Of a stretch of DNA of 64,000 bases, positions 28,047-34,886 are shown one piece after another. Position 1 is the first letter of the stretch, and each line of letters starts with the position of its first letter. Under the pieces are notes generated by a model. That model worked only from the letters and a program-made list of their open reading frames with translations. It was not told where the DNA came from and did not search any database. The DNA is taken from contig JAZIGN010000002.1 of assembly GCA_036679065.1 (NCBI GenBank), positions 9,713 to 73,712 on the forward strand, in the 5' to 3' direction. This stretch comes from Coprothermobacterota bacterium (GTDB taxonomy: Bacteria; Coprothermobacterota; Coprothermobacteria; Coprothermobacterales; Coprothermobacteraceae). The position numbers and the translations under genes were made by a program.

Positions 28047-29237
28047 ATGAATTTGGCATTGTGGCTCTTAGTAATCTTTGTAGTTATTGTGCTGCTACTT
28101 GACAAGGTAGACCTTTATCTACTGTTTTTAGGTGCCACCGTATTCCTTGGCTTTATAGGGGGATTGTCTTTTGCAGATTTGGGCAAAGGGTTTTTAGAAA
28201 GCTTATTTGCCCAGCGCACAGTGGCCGTACTGCTAACGCTATATTTAATGTCTTTGTACGAAGTGTTTTTACGCCGTAGCGGTGCTTTGGCAAGGCTGAC
28301 TCACAATTTTATCAAAATGCTCGGAGATTACAGGCTAACAAGTGTTGTAATGCCTGCAATTATGGGGCTGCTCCCCTCACCTGGAGGGGCTAGATTCTCT
28401 GCTCCACTGGTAGCAGAGACATTGGAAAATTCAGCGGTGTCTAACCAAGAGAAAGCTTTCATAAATTTCTGGTTTCGCCACATATGGGAACCTATCTTGC
28501 CTGTATACCCAGGTACTTTAATGGCAGCCATGCTTATGGGCATCACACCAGGCCACTTAGCCCAGATGAACTGGTACATACCACTTTTGATGATAGTAGT
28601 TGGCTGGGTTTTAGTGTTCGGTTTCTCCTTACCTTCTGTGAGATTTCAGAACCCTTCATGGAAAGAGGTTATCTTGGATTTGGGCCCTCTTTTAGCAGTC
28701 ATTGTGGCAGGCGTTACTATAAAAAATGATTTTACAGTGCCCATAGCCATACTTTTGGCTTGCGCTTTTATATACATTTTGCACGCCAAGTCGTTACCCA
28801 AAATGGGAACATTGCTTAGTGAAGCCCTGAAGTGGAAAATGCTAGCTATAATACCTGCGGTGTACTATTTTGCTAACATTTTGGAGTCCACAGGTGCCAA
28901 TGAAGCTGTAGCTTCGAGTTTGAGTGCTTTACATTTACCTACAATTGTATTTTTTATAGCCCTTCCTTTTGTGGTTTCAATGATAACTGGTTTAACCCAA
29001 GCTGGTGTTGGCACCTCACTGCCTTTGCTAATCGGCCTGACAACACCTGCAAACCGTGTCGCCATGCTTAACTTGGCATTCATTTTTGCCTTCATAGGTG
29101 TAATGGCAAGCCCCACTCATTTGTGTTTGATACTGTCACGGGACTACTTTGAAGCAAGAGCGGGAGCTCTTTATAACAAACTGTTCATGGCTGTGTTTGT
29201 AGTTGGTCTGCTCCCTGTTGTGCTTGCATTATTCTGA
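28047..29237 (+). CDS. DUF401 family membrane protein (ion transporter superfamily)
   Basis: GLLPSPGGA.FSAP, NFWFRHIWE, SPTHLCL. Confidence 0.8.
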   Translation: MNLALWLLVIFVVIVLLLDKVDLYLLFLGATVFLGFIGGLSFADLGKGFLESLFAQRTVAVLLTLYLMSLYEVFLRRSGALARLTHNFIKMLGDYRLTSVVMPAIMGLLPSPGGARFSAPLVAETLENSAVSNQEKAFINFWFRHIWEPILPVYPGTLMAAMLMGITPGHLAQMNWYIPLLMIVVGWVLVFGFSLPSVRFQNPSWKEVILDLGPLLAVIVAGVTIKNDFTVPIAILLACAFIYILHAKSLPKMGTLLSEALKWKMLAIIPAVYYFANILESTGANEAVASSLSALHLPTIVFFIALPFVVSMITGLTQAGVGTSLPLLIGLTTPANRVAMLNLAFIFAFIGVMASPTHLCLILSRDYFEARAGALYNKLFMAVFVVGLLPVVLALF

Positions 29238-29304
29238 GTGCTAATGAGTGTTAATATTTAAGTGTGCTAACTAATATTACTTACCGCATTTGGGAGGTGT
29301 AAGT

Positions 29305-30471
29305 GTGAAAGTACTCATCACTAACGTCCAGGTTTACACAGTTTCCCATGGTGTTATTGACAAAGGCAGCGTTCTAGTAGAAGATGGTAAAATCAGCCAG
29401 GTTTCTGCAGGAGACATTCAAGTAGAAGGAGCAAATGTTGTAGACGGAAAAGGTTTAACGCTGATGCCTGGGTTCATTGATGCTCACACACACGTAGGCA
29501 TTTCTGAAGAAGGTTTCGGATGGGAAGGTGCAGACTACAACGAATGGGTAGACCCTGTAACGCCCTACCTTAGAGCTATTGACGGAATCAATCCCATGGA
29601 ACAGGGCGTCAAAGATGCTTTAGAAGGCGGCGTAACCACGATTTGTGCTGCTCCTGGTTCTGCAAATGTCATAGGAGGCACAGCTTGCGTCTTCAAGCCC
29701 TTTGGAAAAGCCATTGACAAGATGGTTATTAAAGATCCCGTTGCATTGAAAGCTGCTACTGGCGAAAACCCCAAGAGGGTCTACAGGGACATGAAGAAGT
29801 CTCCAGTAACCAGAATGGCCACAGCATCACTGATGAGGCAGGCGCTACTTAAGGCTAAATCTTACATGGAAAAGAAAGAAAAATACGCCAATGAGCCCGA
29901 AAAGCAACCTGATTTCGACTTAGGTATGGAACATCTTTGCATGGTACTTCGTAAGGAAATCCCCATGAAGATCCATGCTCATAGGGCTGATGACATCCTA
30001 ACCGCTATCAGAATAGCGAGAGAGTTCGACATAAACATAACCATTGACCACTGCACTGAAGGACACTTAGTACCTGAGGAAATTGCTGAATCCAAGTTCC
30101 CATGTATTGTTGGACCAAACTTAACCAATAGAAGCAAAGTGGAACTCATGAACAAAAGTTTCGAAACACCCGCAGTACTCCATAAACACGGCGTTCTCTT
30201 CGCTATAATGACAGATCACCCTGTTATCCCCATACAGTTTCTTCCTCTAACTGTGGGCTTGGCTGTAAAGTACGGCCTGCCCTATGATGAAGGCATAAAA
30301 GCCATAACCATCAATGCTGCAAGGATTCTAGGATTGGACGAGCGCTTGGGCTCCATTGAACCTGGAAAGGATGCAGATCTAGTACTTTGGGAAGGAGATC
30401 CACTGTCTGTTGACGGAAAGCCAATGTTCGTTATGGTAAACGGACAGATTGCTGTGAACAAACTCCAATAA
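29305..30471 (+). CDS. Amidohydrolase family protein
   Basis: PGFIDAHTH, GENPK, HAHRADD, TDHP, GSIEPGKDADLV. Confidence 0.92.
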   Translation: MKVLITNVQVYTVSHGVIDKGSVLVEDGKISQVSAGDIQVEGANVVDGKGLTLMPGFIDAHTHVGISEEGFGWEGADYNEWVDPVTPYLRAIDGINPMEQGVKDALEGGVTTICAAPGSANVIGGTACVFKPFGKAIDKMVIKDPVALKAATGENPKRVYRDMKKSPVTRMATASLMRQALLKAKSYMEKKEKYANEPEKQPDFDLGMEHLCMVLRKEIPMKIHAHRADDILTAIRIAREFDINITIDHCTEGHLVPEEIAESKFPCIVGPNLTNRSKVELMNKSFETPAVLHKHGVLFAIMTDHPVIPIQFLPLTVGLAVKYGLPYDEGIKAITINAARILGLDERLGSIEPGKDADLVLWEGDPLSVDGKPMFVMVNGQIAVNKLQ

Positions 30472-30480
30472 ACAAATATA

Positions 30481-30519
30481 GAAAAAAAGAAAAGGGACGG
30501 TGGGGGTAACCGTCCCTTT
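30481..30519 (-). terminator. Intrinsic terminator (probably bidirectional)
   Basis: AAAGGGACGGT/ACCGTCCCTTT stem with long minus-strand U-tract. Confidence 0.8.
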
Positions 30520-30610
30520 GTAGGTGTGGTGAGGAAAGGAGGTGGGTGAGATGCCAGGGGTATGCATCTCACAGGGAGGCTTACTCGGAAGATATACTTC
30601 CGTTCTTCGA
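30481..30610 (-). ncRNA. Candidate small RNA with anti-SD sequence and C-rich loops
   Basis: Three perfect hairpins, the last followed by a U-tract on the minus strand; unpaired CACCUCCUUUC; TATTAT -10-like box at 30616-30621. Confidence 0.5.
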
Positions 30611-30765
30611 TAACTATAATACCGCAAAGGGCTGCGTATAATTCTTAAATCATTGTTAAGAAATGTGCTCCATCAGTAGTCCTTGGGGTGCATAAAAGAG
30701 GTCTCAGGCTGGTAAATATCATAAGTAGAAGCGTAAAGGAACTAGTAAATGCAGGAGGTGCAATT

Positions 30766-32586
30766 ATGGCCAAGATCATAGGAATAGATCTGGGAACATC
30801 AAACTCTTGTGCCGCAGTTATGCTGGGTGGCAAACCTACAATCATTCCATCTGCCGAAGGAACTACCATGTACGGCAAGACAGTACCATCGGTTGTTGCA
30901 TTCACTAAGGACGGACAAATACTCGTGGGTGAACCAGCCAGAAGGCAGGCAGCCATGAACCCAGAAGGAACTATAACGGGCATAAAGAGAAAAATGGGCA
31001 CACGGGAAACTATCCAGGTTTTCGGTAAGACATACACGCCTGAACAAATCTCAGCTTTTATTCTACAAAAGATAAAGAAGGACGCGGAGGCTTTCTTAGG
31101 AGAACCTGTTAGCAAAGCTGTCATAACCGTACCTGCTTACTTTAACGATGCCCAAAGACAGGCCACAAAGGATGCAGGTGCCATTGCGGGCTTGGAAGTT
31201 GTCAGACTTATTAACGAGCCCACGGCAGCTGCTTTTGCATACGGCTTGGACAAAGCGAACCAAGAACTGAAGATCATGGTTTTTGATTTTGGTGGTGGTA
31301 CGCTGGACGTGACCATCATGGACTTTGGTCACGGAGTGTTCCAGGTAGTTTCCACCAGCGGCGATACACAGCTAGGCGGACGTGACATGGATAAAGTGCT
31401 CATGGATTACGTTCTTGAAGAGTTTCAGAGAGAATCGGGAATCGATTTGCGTAATGACAGAATGGCAATGATCAGGGTCAATGAAGCTGTGGAGAAGGCA
31501 AAGATTGAACTATCCTCAGTTTTAGAAACTGACATATCCCTACCATTCATAGCAATGAAGGACGGACAACCAGTTCATCTTCAAATGAAAGTAACCCGAG
31601 CAAAACTAGAGCAATTGGTGAGACCCATCGTAGAAAAAACTGCTGGGCCCATTGAACAGGCACTAAAAGACGCTCAATTAACACCCAATGACATAGACAA
31701 GATTATTCTCATAGGTGGACCTACACGTATGCCCATCGTGAGAGATTTTGTTGAACAGTTCATGGGAAAACCAGTGGAAAGAGGCATCGACCCCATGGAA
31801 GCTGTAGCAATGGGCGCTGCAATACAGGCTGGTATAATCGAGGGAACCGTCAACGATATTGTACTGGTGGATGTTACCCCACTATCACTGGGTGTAGAAA
31901 CGGTTGGTGGCATCATGACTACGCTGATACCTAGGAATACACCTATCCCAGTAACAAAATCAGAAATCTTCACCACAGCAACAGATTTCCAAACCAGTGT
32001 GCAAATACATGTGCTCCAAGGAGAAAGGCCACTGGCAAAGGACAACTTATCTTTGGGGCAATTCATCCTAGATGGTATACCACCTGCACCACGTGGTGTG
32101 CCACAAATAGAAGTCACCTTTAGCATTGATGCTAACGGTATCTTAAGCGTAACGGCAAAAGACAAAGCCACAGGAAAGAGTCAGCAAATCACCATCACCA
32201 ACAGCACACGCTTGACTGAAGAAGAAATAGAGCGAATGCGGAAAGAGGCAGAGATGTACGCTGACGAAGACCGCAGGCGTAAAGAAGAAATTGAAACAAG
32301 AAACCAAGCTGACACATATGTTTATCAAGCCAGGAAACTCTTAAAGGAAAATGAAGGGAAGCTCCCCGATGACATCGTCAAAGAGATCACAGAAAAGGTC
32401 GATAATTTAGAGAAAGCCTTACGAGACAATCAGCCAGCAGAACAATTAAAGCAGCTCATGGAAGATGTTATAACCGCCATGGGAAAGGCAGGTGCTTATC
32501 TGTACCAAAGTGGTGGTGAGCAGCAGCCCAGAAGTGATGGCGGTAATGACACTACCGATCAAGGTCCTCAAGGAGAAGTACACTAA
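30766..32586 (+). CDS. dnaK: Molecular chaperone DnaK (Hsp70)
   Basis: [32 protein letters not shown]; AGGAGGTG RBS. Confidence 0.97.
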
Positions 32587-34696: not shown

Positions 34697-34717
34697 CATG
34701 CCTCCCCTCTTCAAAGA

Positions 34718-34865
34718 AACCCGCCGTGCCGTAAAGGGCCAGAAAGCTGCGTCCCTGTCACACAGGTGGGTGCTTCCCTCCTGCTACCTGAGCAGTAGCA
34801 GGATTCGAGCTCCCAAGACGCATTTGTTGGATGCACTTCTGCCCCTGCTTACGCACACGGCAGGT
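34718..34865 (-). ncRNA. ssrS: 6S RNA
   Basis: Closing stem ACCUGCCGUG/CACGGCGGGU, conserved GGGAGC...GCACCCACCUG...ACGGCA elements, TGGTATAAT promoter at 34872-34880. Confidence 0.85.
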
Positions 34866-34886
34866 AATAACATTATACCATCAAAA

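What the first reader, a model, noticed from the sequence alone, without database searches (positions are those of the whole stretch)
30481..30621. Candidate anti-Shine-Dalgarno small RNA upstream of dnaK
Seen, on the minus strand 5'->3': a TATTAT box; hairpin CGGAAG/CUUCCG; linker GCCUCCCU; a 9-bp hairpin with loop AUACCCCUG; single-stranded CCACCUCCUUUCCUCACCACACCU; an 11-bp terminator with loop UACCCCC and a long U-tract; about 125-130 nt in all. CACCUCCUUUC matches the typical 16S rRNA 3' tail and is complementary to the AGGAGGUG RBS of dnaK, hup and others here. Known: C-rich sRNAs (RsaE/RoxS, FsrA) block SD sequences. Inference: a global repressor of SD-led mRNAs that would spare the many leaderless mRNAs in this window, i.e. 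a translational switch between mRNA classes. Alternative: the plus strand has AAAGGAGGTG then ATG 30551 encoding MPGVCISQGGLLGRYTSVLR (20 aa), whose start sits in hairpin 2, giving a small-peptide/antisense pair.
Basis: partly seen in the sequence, partly recalled or inferred. Interest (0 to 1): 0.75.

Follow-up and report, generated by a model that had tools for sequence, protein, structure and literature searches.

The report
New C-rich small RNA beside dnaK
The flagged stretch is very probably a real gene for a ~125-base small RNA found only in the heat-loving Coprothermobacter family. Its open C-rich stretch copies the ribosome's mRNA-docking sequence, so it most likely silences selected messages by covering their ribosome-binding sites, a known kind of regulator in a group where none had been described.

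Summary
Observation confirmed. On the minus strand lie a -10 box (30621-30616), three hairpins, C-rich unpaired tracts and an intrinsic terminator (30519-30491), about 125 nt in all. The unpaired CACCUCCUUUC (30544-30534) equals the 3' tail of this genome's own 16S rRNA.

The unit is conserved in every well-assembled Coprothermobacteraceae genome searched (two genera) and in no other family of the phylum. The 64-nt core is 94-98% identical, while dnaK third codon positions are 40-46% identical. The -10 box, its spacing to an upstream direct repeat, the U-tract side and compensatory stem changes all point to a minus-strand RNA.

The plus-strand 20-aa ORF is frameshifted between species and is rejected. 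Rfam gives only a sub-threshold RsaE/RoxS hit (25 bits against a cut-off of 79).

Best reading: a new family of the known kind of C-rich sRNA that blocks Shine-Dalgarno sites, like RoxS/RsaE and streptococcal csRNAs. The best candidate target is rtcB. Its ribosome-binding site is the top match in this genome and the only other match to the seed's 18-nt complement (up to 3 mismatches) in C. platensis.

The "global switch to leaderless mRNAs" idea is neither supported nor excluded. Transcription could not be shown, because only assembled contigs were available. This scan has noted similar anti-SD sRNAs in other genomes.

The parts
30644..30660 (-). Direct repeat CTTAAC-N5-TTTAAG upstream of the sRNA promoter; probably a regulator site (inferred)
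   Evidence: It is conserved in G000, C. platensis, metagenome contig L033 and Ch108, which has CTTAAC-N5-CTTAAC. The 21-22-nt spacer to the -10 box keeps its length while its sequence diverges. Spacing to the dnaK -10 varies from 24 to 30 nt. Only 5 such repeats occur in the genome.
30616..30621 (-). -10 box TATTAT of the sRNA gene
   Evidence: It is kept as TAT[T/G][A/C]T in all lineages while the flanks diverge. The conserved block starts 7 nt downstream. No canonical -35 lies 16-18 nt upstream (read; the scan lists no full promoter here).
30484..30608 (-). Predicted sRNA transcript, about 125 nt; the 5' end at about 30608 is inferred
   Evidence: Fold z = -6.6. About 90% identical between genera, with a 64-nt core at 94-98%, against 40-46% at dnaK third codon positions. 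The covariance model scores 117-132 bits only in family f1.
30586..30602 (-). Hairpin 1
   Evidence: The stem is kept with different extra pairs: an outer C-G in G000, an inner A-U in C. platensis and L033, and G-C plus C-G in Ch108. The indels of +4 and +2 nt are not multiples of three.
30573..30580 (-). C-rich linker GCCUCCCU (C-rich tract 1)
   Evidence: Invariant. P(unpaired) is 0.75-0.9.
30546..30572 (-). Hairpin 2, 9 bp, with C-rich loop AUACCCCUG (30563-30555)
   Evidence: The stem is invariant and only the loop varies (AUA, CUU or CUC before CCCCUG). CAU in the 3' arm lies 8 nt 5' of CACCUCC, so the stretch is the complement of an SD, a spacer and an AUG.
30520..30545 (-). Unpaired G-free tract. 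Positions 30544-30534 (CACCUCCUUUC) equal the 16S rRNA 3' tail
   Evidence: Identity to the genome's own 16S. P(unpaired) is about 0.9. One substitution across two genera. It pairs with ribosome-binding sites as widely as the 16S tail does.
30482..30519 (-). Intrinsic terminator (11 bp, loop UACCCCC) plus U tract
   Evidence: C. platensis has a compensating change, and Ch108 has a U-G closing pair that would be C-A on the other strand. The T tract lies on the minus-strand side in all lineages.
30551..30613 (+). 20-aa ORF on the opposite strand; judged a by-product, not a gene
   Evidence: Its C-terminal half is frameshifted between species (20, 26 and 22 aa).
30689..30720 (+). Probable dnaK promoter region, divergent from the sRNA gene
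   Evidence: TGnTATAAA-type extended -10 at 30689-30696 and the block CAGGCTGGTAAATATC at 30705-30720 are conserved in four lineages. They lie outside the sRNA, so the dnaK mRNA should not overlap it.

Best explanation
This is a stand-alone gene for a trans-acting small RNA of about 125 nt. It is specific to Coprothermobacteraceae and is transcribed on the minus strand, divergently from dnaK.

The promoter has a conserved -10 box and no canonical -35. A direct repeat (CTTAAC-N5-TTTAAG) sits 22 nt upstream, so transcription is probably activator-dependent (inferred).

The RNA folds into three stable hairpins. They display four C-rich tracts: the linker, the loop of hairpin 2, a 26-nt G-free single strand and the terminator loop.

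The single strand carries the ribosome's anti-Shine-Dalgarno sequence. With the CAU in the adjoining stem, it is the complement of an idealised translation start region.

The most likely mechanism is pairing with the Shine-Dalgarno region of a limited set of mRNAs. This would block 30S binding, as RoxS/RsaE and streptococcal csRNAs do.

The best candidate target is rtcB, in the archease-rtcB operon.

Shown here: sequence and structure conservation, strand polarity signals and pairing potential. Inferred: transcription, its ends, the regulator, the targets and the direction of regulation.
For: 1. Purifying selection:
- The core is 94-98% identical and the whole RNA about 90%.
- dnaK third codon positions are only 40-46% identical, and the rest of the intergenic region 54-65%.

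2. Conservation and synteny:
- In another genus only the sRNA part of the intergenic region is recognisable.
- The order amidohydrolase / sRNA / dnaK is kept.

3. Polarity:
- The -10 box is conserved 7 nt before the conserved block.
- The terminator U tract lies on the minus-strand side in all lineages.
- Ch108 has a U-G pair that is valid only on this strand.

4. RNA structure rather than coding:
- All four variants give the same three-hairpin fold.
- Hairpin 1 and the terminator carry compensating changes.
- Indels of +4 and +2 nt would break any reading frame, and the plus-strand ORF is frameshifted.

5. Accessibility: the C-rich tracts are about 90% unpaired up to 70 C.

6. Pairing potential:
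- 11 nt are identical to the genome's own 16S tail.
- 8 nt or more of perfect pairing occurs at 194 of 1162 ribosome-binding sites, against 218 for the 16S tail.

7. Candidate target rtcB:
- It has the longest contiguous match (13 nt) and the lowest duplex energy of all 1162 start regions.
- It is also the top site in a whole-genome scan, apart from the sRNA's own antisense.
- In C. platensis the diverged rtcB ribosome-binding site matches 16 of 18. No G000 start region exceeds 14 of 18.
- In C. platensis it is the only site besides the sRNA gene within 3 mismatches.
- The sRNA duplex beats the 16S-tail duplex by 13-15 kcal/mol in both species.

8. Same design as RoxS/RsaE:
- Both have a C-rich motif in a hairpin loop, another unpaired between two stems, and four C-rich regions. 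Both families bind SD sequences (PMC6158497, PMC5419742).
- RsaE is the only Rfam family with a weak hit.

9. A second conserved sRNA with the CACCUCC core exists in the same genomes, as expected for a set of selective regulators.
Against: - There is no transcript evidence. The RNA runs were available only as assembled contigs spanning the whole region, which show neither strand nor ends.
- Only about four independent lineages exist and most of the RNA is invariant, so covariation is thin.
- Complementarity is largely generic. It correlates with 16S-tail binding (r = 0.66).
- The sRNA-specific extension GGAGGTGGG is not enriched.
- tldD and moaE sites are not consistently kept, and rtcB complementarity is lost in genus 2 (11 of 18).
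- Part of the C. platensis rtcB match needs the base of hairpin 2 to open.
- No Hfq was found (the genome is 85% complete). RoxS/RsaE, however, act in species without a known RNA hub protein such as Hfq (PMC8216469).
Confidence: 0.6

Rival explanations
1. Global competitor. When strongly induced, the RNA acts as a free copy of the 16S anti-SD tail. It occupies SD sequences in bulk and shifts translation towards leaderless or SD-less mRNAs.
For: - 11 nt are identical to the 16S tail.
- Its pairing spectrum is nearly the same as that of the 16S tail.
- About 80% of ORFs are SD-led.
- A leaderless class is plausible. 65 of 228 SD-less ORFs have a -10-like hexamer 11-16 nt before a start codon, against 6 of 934 SD-led ORFs.
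- The gene lies next to the stress gene dnaK in all lineages.
Against: - Nothing shows the near-stoichiometric abundance this role would need.
- The 16 invariant nucleotides 3' of the anti-SD part (CUCACCACACCUACA) and the CCC on its 5' side are not explained by SD mimicry.
- A second sRNA shares the core.
- One target stands out.
- Known C-rich sRNAs with similar seeds have restricted regulons (PMC6158497).
Confidence: 0.1
2. Decoy or sponge. The RNA mimics the 16S rRNA 3' end or a pyrimidine-rich ligand. It would titrate a protein that handles that tail, or a G-rich RNA, rather than mRNAs.
For: - It carries an exact copy of the 16S tail in an unpaired, G-free context.
- Invariance extends over the whole 64-nt core.
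- The best mRNA match is rtcB, whose E. coli homologue re-ligates the cleaved 16S 3' end (PMC5416887). This is a coincidence worth noting.
Against: - No candidate partner was identified.
- No MazF/PemK homologue was found (the genome is 85% complete).
- The design matches base-pairing sRNAs.
Confidence: 0.08
3. Cis element rather than a trans sRNA. It could be a plus-strand dnaK leader or amidohydrolase 3' UTR. Or it could be a minus-strand leader whose terminator conditionally allows antisense transcription into the amidohydrolase gene.
For: - The plus strand also folds well (z = -4.6).
- The terminator hairpin lies 20 nt after the amidohydrolase stop codon and could serve both strands.
- Synteny with both neighbours is fixed.
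Against: - The conserved dnaK -10 lies downstream of the element, at 30689-30696.
- On the plus strand the hairpin is followed by only UUUG.
- The minus-strand -10 is conserved with fixed spacing.
- Ch108 has a U-G pair on the minus strand only.
- No gene lies downstream on the minus strand.
Confidence: 0.07
4. Small-peptide gene on the plus strand (MPGVCISQGGLLGRYTSVLR), with or without an antisense RNA.
For: A perfect SD (AAAGGAGGTG) lies 7 nt before the ATG at 30551. The first 10 residues are conserved.
Against: - The C-terminal half is frameshifted and its length varies: 20, 26 and 22 aa.
- The conserved N-terminus is fully explained by conservation of the sRNA.
- The start codon sits inside a 9-bp stem.
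- No plus-strand promoter is conserved upstream of it.
Confidence: 0.03

Closest known systems
RsaE / RoxS of Bacillales (Rfam RF01820)
   Same: - Both are sRNAs of about 100-125 nt with their own promoter and an intrinsic terminator.
- Both have several C-rich regions: one in a hairpin loop, one unpaired between two stems, and one in the terminator loop.
- RsaE/RoxS act by pairing with SD sequences to block initiation (PMC6158497, PMC5419742).
- There is local sequence likeness: Rfam consensus UCUCCCAUCCCCUUUGU against UCACCCACCUCCUUUCC here.
   Different: - The score is 25.4 bits against a gathering score of 79, and a whole-genome search does not recover the locus.
- The host phylum is Coprothermobacterota, not Bacillales.
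- There is an extra 5' hairpin.
- The seed is the full anti-SD (CACCUCCUUUC), not duplicated CCCC/UCCC motifs.
- No Rex-box-like sequence is found in 30481-30700 (consensus taken from memory).
- Likeness by convergence is at least as likely as common descent.
CiaR-dependent csRNAs of streptococci
   Same: - Both have two stem-loops flanking an unpaired region complementary to the SD plus the start codon.
- csRNA promoters have a -10 box and, in place of a -35, a direct repeat NTTAAG-N5-TTTAAG (PMC3091779).
- Here the repeat is CTTAAC-N5-TTTAAG, and CAU lies 8 nt 5' of the anti-SD.
   Different: - The repeat lies 22 nt from the -10 rather than 10 nt.
- The first repeat ends in C, where csRNA promoters have an invariant G.
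- The CAU is inside a stem.
- No Rfam match exists, the phylum is unrelated, and no CiaR orthologue was examined.
MazF / RtcB ribosome-heterogeneity model in E. coli
   Same: The idea is the same: reprogram translation by removing or masking SD:anti-SD pairing, which favours leaderless mRNAs. RtcB restores the anti-SD-bearing 16S tail (PMC5416887, PMC6431027). rtcB is the best predicted target here.
   Different: That system cuts rRNA with a toxin. Here a free RNA would mask mRNAs instead. No MazF/PemK was found in this genome. The link is speculative.

Membership tests
RsaE/RoxS (RF01820) | Covariance-model score at or above the Rfam gathering score of 79 bits | tested here: not met
   25.4 bits, E = 0.045, seen only with permissive filters on 501 nt. 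The locus is not recovered in whole-genome searches of 6 family genomes, while the B. subtilis control passes.
RsaE/RoxS (RF01820) | Distribution in Bacillales (PMC6158497) | tested here: not met
   Relatives are Coprothermobacter platensis, Coprothermobacter sp. UBA10526 and Coprothermobacteraceae Ch108.
RsaE/RoxS (RF01820) | C-rich motif in a hairpin loop plus a C-rich motif unpaired between two stems; four C-rich regions (PMC6158497, PMC5419742) | tested here: met
   The linker GCCUCCCU, loop ACCCCU, the single-stranded tract and the terminator loop ACCCCC are all predicted unpaired.
RsaE/RoxS (RF01820) | Two identical 10-nt repeat motifs (PMC6158497) | tested here: not met
   The two loops share only UACCCC (6 nt). 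The single-stranded seed is different.
RsaE/RoxS (RF01820) | Rex operator just downstream of the transcription start (PMC5419742) | tested here: not met
   No match to TTGTGAA-N4-TTCACAA with up to 3 mismatches near 30481-30700. The consensus was taken from memory.
RsaE/RoxS (RF01820) | Blocks initiation complexes on SD sequences of target mRNAs | not testable with these tools
   Only pairing potential was computed.
csRNA (CiaR-dependent sRNAs) | NTTAAG-N5-TTTAAG repeat 10 nt upstream of the -10 box, with the final G invariant (PMC3091779) | tested here: not met
   The repeat is CTTAAC-N5-TTTAAG, and CTTAAC-N5-CTTAAC in Ch108. It lies 22 nt (21 in Ch108) from the -10 box.
csRNA (CiaR-dependent sRNAs) | Unpaired anti-SD plus anti-start codon between two stem-loops | tested here: inconclusive
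   The anti-SD is unpaired between hairpin 2 and the terminator. CAU is present but lies in the 3' arm of hairpin 2.
Independent trans-acting sRNA gene (generic) | Own promoter, intrinsic terminator, no conserved ORF, conserved apart from its flanks | tested here: met
Independent trans-acting sRNA gene (generic) | Detectable discrete transcript on the predicted strand | not testable with these tools
   19 metatranscriptome runs hold the region, but only as contigs that span it whole.

The most novel reading that the evidence does not exclude
The RNA is a regulated free copy of the ribosome's anti-SD tail with two linked effects.
- It masks strong Shine-Dalgarno sites broadly, shifting translation towards the leaderless or SD-less gene class that this genome appears to have.
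- It most tightly represses rtcB. This is the RNA ligase that in E. coli restores the anti-SD-bearing 16S 3' end.

Together these would form an RNA-based switch of ribosome-mRNA docking, placed next to the stress gene dnaK.
Probability: 0.07. Interest if true: 0.85.

Novelty: new member of a known kind. Interest (0 to 1): 0.45.

Why it matters
- A full-text search for Coprothermobacter with "small RNA" found no paper describing an sRNA in the genus. The group is abundant in thermophilic anaerobic digesters.
- This would be a first sRNA there, with a clear and testable design: a seed that equals the anti-SD sequence.
- It comes with a concrete candidate target, the ribosome-binding site of archease-rtcB.
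- A sister sRNA exists in the same genomes.
- It adds a deep-branching thermophile to the list of lineages that use C-rich sRNAs to block SD sites. These may have arisen independently or be very old.
- It offers a simple system for asking how an sRNA carrying the full anti-SD stays selective in a genome where about 80% of genes have strong SD sites.

Tried and rejected
1. Expression. 19 RNA runs hold the region, and four were laid. All are assembled contigs spanning the region, with no strand, ends or level. In run X16 one contig ends at 30609 and another starts at 30586, close to the predicted 5' end. This is one run and contigs only, so it is not evidence.

2. Homologues outside the family.
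- The covariance model R1 on all 13 phylum genomes gave hits of 25 bits or less elsewhere. These are antisense ribosome-binding sites next to terminators.
- A gapped pattern scan of GTDB genomes and JGI metagenomes found only Coprothermobacteraceae plus chance hits in C-rich DNA, such as a Polyangium MAG and low-complexity contigs.
- The regions upstream of dnaK in the other families hold grpE or a CIRCE-like operator, not this RNA.

3. RsaE membership: below threshold and not recovered genome-wide.

4. Target conservation.
- The tldD site is kept in C. platensis, but there the whole leader is conserved.
- The moaE site and the rtcB site in genus 2 are not kept.
- GGAGGTGGG is not enriched.
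- No long match to the non-anti-SD part of the seed exceeds chance.

5. Regulator sites. No CIRCE element occurs in the genome, and no Rex-like box lies near the gene.

6. Partner proteins. Hfq and MazF/PemK were not found in this 85%-complete genome, so absence is not proven.

7. Literature. No paper describing an sRNA in Coprothermobacter was found.

8. Alternative fold. RNAalifold on a MAFFT alignment paired the 5' end (GAAGAACGGA) with the anti-SD core. This came partly from a misaligned hairpin 1. Single-sequence folds prefer hairpin 1. A self-masking alternative fold remains possible but unsupported.

Full report
**Layout.**
The window carries an amidohydrolase gene (plus strand, 29290-30471), a 294-nt gap, then dnaK (plus strand) and dnaJ. 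The true dnaK start is the ATG at 30766, with SD AGGAGGTG at 30753-30760.

The flagged unit lies in the gap on the minus strand. Read 5' to 3' it contains:
- TATTAT at 30621-30616
- a conserved block starting at G30608
- hairpin 1 at 30602-30586
- the linker GCCUCCCU
- hairpin 2 at 30572-30546, with loop AUACCCCUG
- a 26-nt G-free single strand at 30545-30520
- an 11-bp terminator at 30519-30491, with loop UACCCCC and a U tract

**Is it more than chance?**
- The minus strand folds at -41.6 kcal/mol, z = -6.5. Orthologues give z = -5 to -7 with the same three hairpins.
- At 37-70 C the hairpins persist and the C-rich tracts are about 90% unpaired.
- The genome's own 16S genes end GGAUCACCUCCUUUCUA. 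The unpaired CACCUCCUUUC is therefore an exact 11-nt copy of the anti-SD tail.

**Organism and distribution.**
Relatives found with the sequence are Coprothermobacter platensis DSM 11748, Coprothermobacter sp. UBA10526 and Coprothermobacteraceae bacterium Ch108.
- BLAST of the whole gap finds it in 4 of 5 other family genomes. The missing one is 68% complete.
- In the other genus only the sRNA part matches, at 86%.
- Synteny is the same in all: amidohydrolase, sRNA, dnaK.
- A covariance model built from hairpin 2, the single strand and the terminator scores 117-132 bits in these genomes. It scores at most 25 bits in the other two families of the phylum, where the hits are antisense ribosome-binding sites next to terminators.
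- Scans of GTDB genomes and JGI metagenomes with a pattern that leaves hairpin 2 free found only Coprothermobacteraceae plus chance hits.
- In the other families dnaK is preceded by grpE or by a CIRCE-like operator, not by this RNA.

**Selection.**
- Between G000 and C. platensis or Ch108, DnaK is 95-96% identical in protein. Its third codon positions are only 40-46% identical.
- The 64-nt sRNA core is 94-98% identical and the whole sRNA about 90%.
- The rest of the gap is 54-65% identical.

**Strand and nature.**
Five observations favour a non-coding minus-strand RNA.
1. The -10 box is kept as TAT[T/G][A/C]T, 7 nt before the conserved block, while neighbouring bases diverge.
2. The T tract follows the terminator on the minus-strand side in every lineage. 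On the plus strand the hairpin is followed by only TTTG.
3. Hairpin 1 keeps GGAAG/CUUCC but adds different pairs in each lineage. The terminator of C. platensis has a compensating change. Ch108 has a U-G closing pair that would be C-A on the other strand.
4. Indels of +4 and +2 nt in hairpin 1 would break any reading frame. The plus-strand ORF keeps 10 residues and then diverges to 20, 26 and 22 aa.
5. A conserved extended -10 for dnaK (TGnTATAAA, 30689-30696) lies between the sRNA promoter and dnaK. The two genes are therefore divergent and should not overlap.

**Promoter.**
- No canonical -35 is present.
- A direct repeat CTTAAC-N5-TTTAAG (30660-30644) is conserved. The spacer to the -10 keeps its length (22 nt; 21 in Ch108) while its sequence diverges.
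- Its distance to the dnaK -10 varies from 24 to 30 nt, so it belongs to the sRNA promoter.
- It resembles the CiaR box of streptococcal csRNA promoters, NTTAAG-N5-TTTAAG placed 10 nt from the -10 (PMC3091779). It differs in spacing and in the first repeat.
- An activator of the response-regulator type is a reasonable inference, nothing more.
- Only five such repeats occur in the genome. One lies 23 nt upstream of a TACAAT box before a sugar-ABC binding-protein gene.

**Known families.**
- At gathering thresholds the window has only 6S RNA.
- With permissive settings the sRNA gives one weak hit, RsaE/RoxS at 25.4 bits against a gathering score of 79, E = 0.045.
- A whole-genome search with that family does not recover the locus.
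- The design is nevertheless the same: four C-rich regions, one in a loop and one unpaired between two stems, acting on SD sequences (PMC5419742, PMC6158497).
- I therefore file it as working like RoxS/RsaE and csRNAs, but not as a member of either family.

**Targets.**
I called 1162 ORFs of 90 aa or more in the 1.25-Mb assembly.
- About 80% have a start with SD duplex energy of -8 kcal/mol or lower against the genome's own 16S tail. The background at internal in-frame candidate start codons is 10%.
- The sRNA single strand pairs almost as the 16S tail does. Perfect pairing of 8 nt or more occurs at 194 start regions, against 218 for the tail. The two energies correlate at r = 0.66.
- The pairing potential is therefore broad, and the computation cannot define a regulon.

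One gene stands out: rtcB, which follows archease.
- Its start region has the longest contiguous match (13 nt, GAAAGGAGGUGGG) and the lowest duplex energy of all genes.
- It is the best site in a whole-genome scan, apart from the sRNA's own antisense.
- In C. platensis the archease-rtcB spacer has diverged, yet it reads GGAAAGAAGGCGGGUGAG. This matches 16 of 18 positions of the complement of sRNA positions 59-76. No G000 start region exceeds 14 of 18.
- In the 1.4-Mb C. platensis genome this is the only site within 3 mismatches besides the sRNA gene itself.
- The sRNA duplex is 13-15 kcal/mol stronger than the 16S-tail duplex in both species at 37 C, and 7-8 kcal/mol stronger at 63 C.

Caveats on rtcB:
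- Five of the C. platensis pairs need the base of hairpin 2 to open.
- In Ch108 rtcB has an ordinary SD, matching 11 of 18.
- I examined three candidates (rtcB, tldD and moaE), and the other two were not convincingly kept.

**The global-switch idea.**
- Its premises hold. SD use is high, and a leaderless class is plausible. 65 of 228 SD-less ORFs have a -10-like hexamer 11-16 nt before a candidate start (33 at a control distance of 41-46 nt), against 6 of 934 SD-led ORFs. One example is the DUF401 gene at 28047.
- Nothing speaks to abundance.
- Several facts fit selective targeting better: invariance of the flanks beyond the anti-SD part, a second sRNA with the same CACCUCC core, and the rtcB result.
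- No MazF/PemK homologue was found.

**Second sRNA.**
- One of the weak covariance-model hits in C. platensis led to G000:C3:441548-441655 (plus strand).
- It has a TTGTCA-17-CATAAT promoter with TGG before the -10, and a terminator.
- Its 23-nt seed ACCUUACACCUCCCUAUCCACCC is identical in both Coprothermobacter species, and 21 of 23 positions are kept in Ch108.
- The middle hairpin is variable. The fold gives z = -5.2, and no Rfam hit passes threshold.

**Expression.**
19 metatranscriptome runs from 15 studies hold the region. They were available only as contigs that span it whole, so transcription of the sRNA itself is not shown.

**Verdict.**
- This is a real, conserved, lineage-specific sRNA gene with about 85-90% probability.
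- It belongs to the known kind of C-rich anti-SD sRNAs, as a new family.
- The mechanism (SD occlusion on selected mRNAs, with rtcB the best candidate) is inferred.
- Earlier notes of this scan list similar anti-SD sRNAs in many other genomes. This lowers the surprise but adds no evidence here.

Noticed in passing
G000:C3:441548-441655 (+), = L060:148-258; orthologues at L063 (C. platensis) and L064 (Ch108): A second conserved C-rich sRNA candidate. It has a TTGTCA-17-CATAAT promoter with TGG before the -10, and a terminator. Its 23-nt seed ACCUUACACCUCCCUAUCCACCC is identical in both Coprothermobacter species, and 21 of 23 positions are kept in Ch108. The middle hairpin is variable. Fold z = -5.2, and no Rfam family passes threshold.
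   Followed up: partly
window 34714-34869 (-): 6S RNA (RF00013), 49.5 bits, just over the gathering score.
   Followed up: no
genome-wide; e.g. window 28047 (DUF401 gene) and window 56688: There is a likely class of leaderless genes. 65 of 228 ORFs without an SD have a TATAAT-like hexamer 11-16 nt before a candidate start, against 6 of 934 SD-led ORFs.
   Followed up: partly
window 30689-30720 (+): The dnaK promoter region is conserved in four lineages: an extended -10 TGnTATAAA plus the block CAGGCTGGTAAATATC. No CIRCE element occurs anywhere in this genome. A sister family has a CIRCE-like TTAGCAATC-N9-TATTGCTAA before dnaK, and another has grpE-dnaK.
   Followed up: partly
G000:C4:181508-181560 (+): TTTAAC-N5-TTTAAC lies 23 nt upstream of a TACAAT box, before a lipoprotein of sugar-ABC binding-protein type followed by an ABC ATPase. 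The geometry matches the sRNA promoter, so the two may share a regulator.
   Followed up: no
G000:C1:115313-121826: The gene order is gyrB-gyrA-archease-rtcB-tsaE. rtcB sits in a housekeeping cluster rather than next to an RtcR-type regulator.
   Followed up: no
G000:C3:613864-613960 (+): An exact TTTAAG-N5-TTTAAG and a 27-nt palindrome (TTAGCA-N15-TGCTAA) lie upstream of a 174-aa ORF (MarR-like by eye; not run against Pfam) followed by two ABC exporter genes. The palindrome is probably that regulator's own operator, not a heat-shock site.
   Followed up: no
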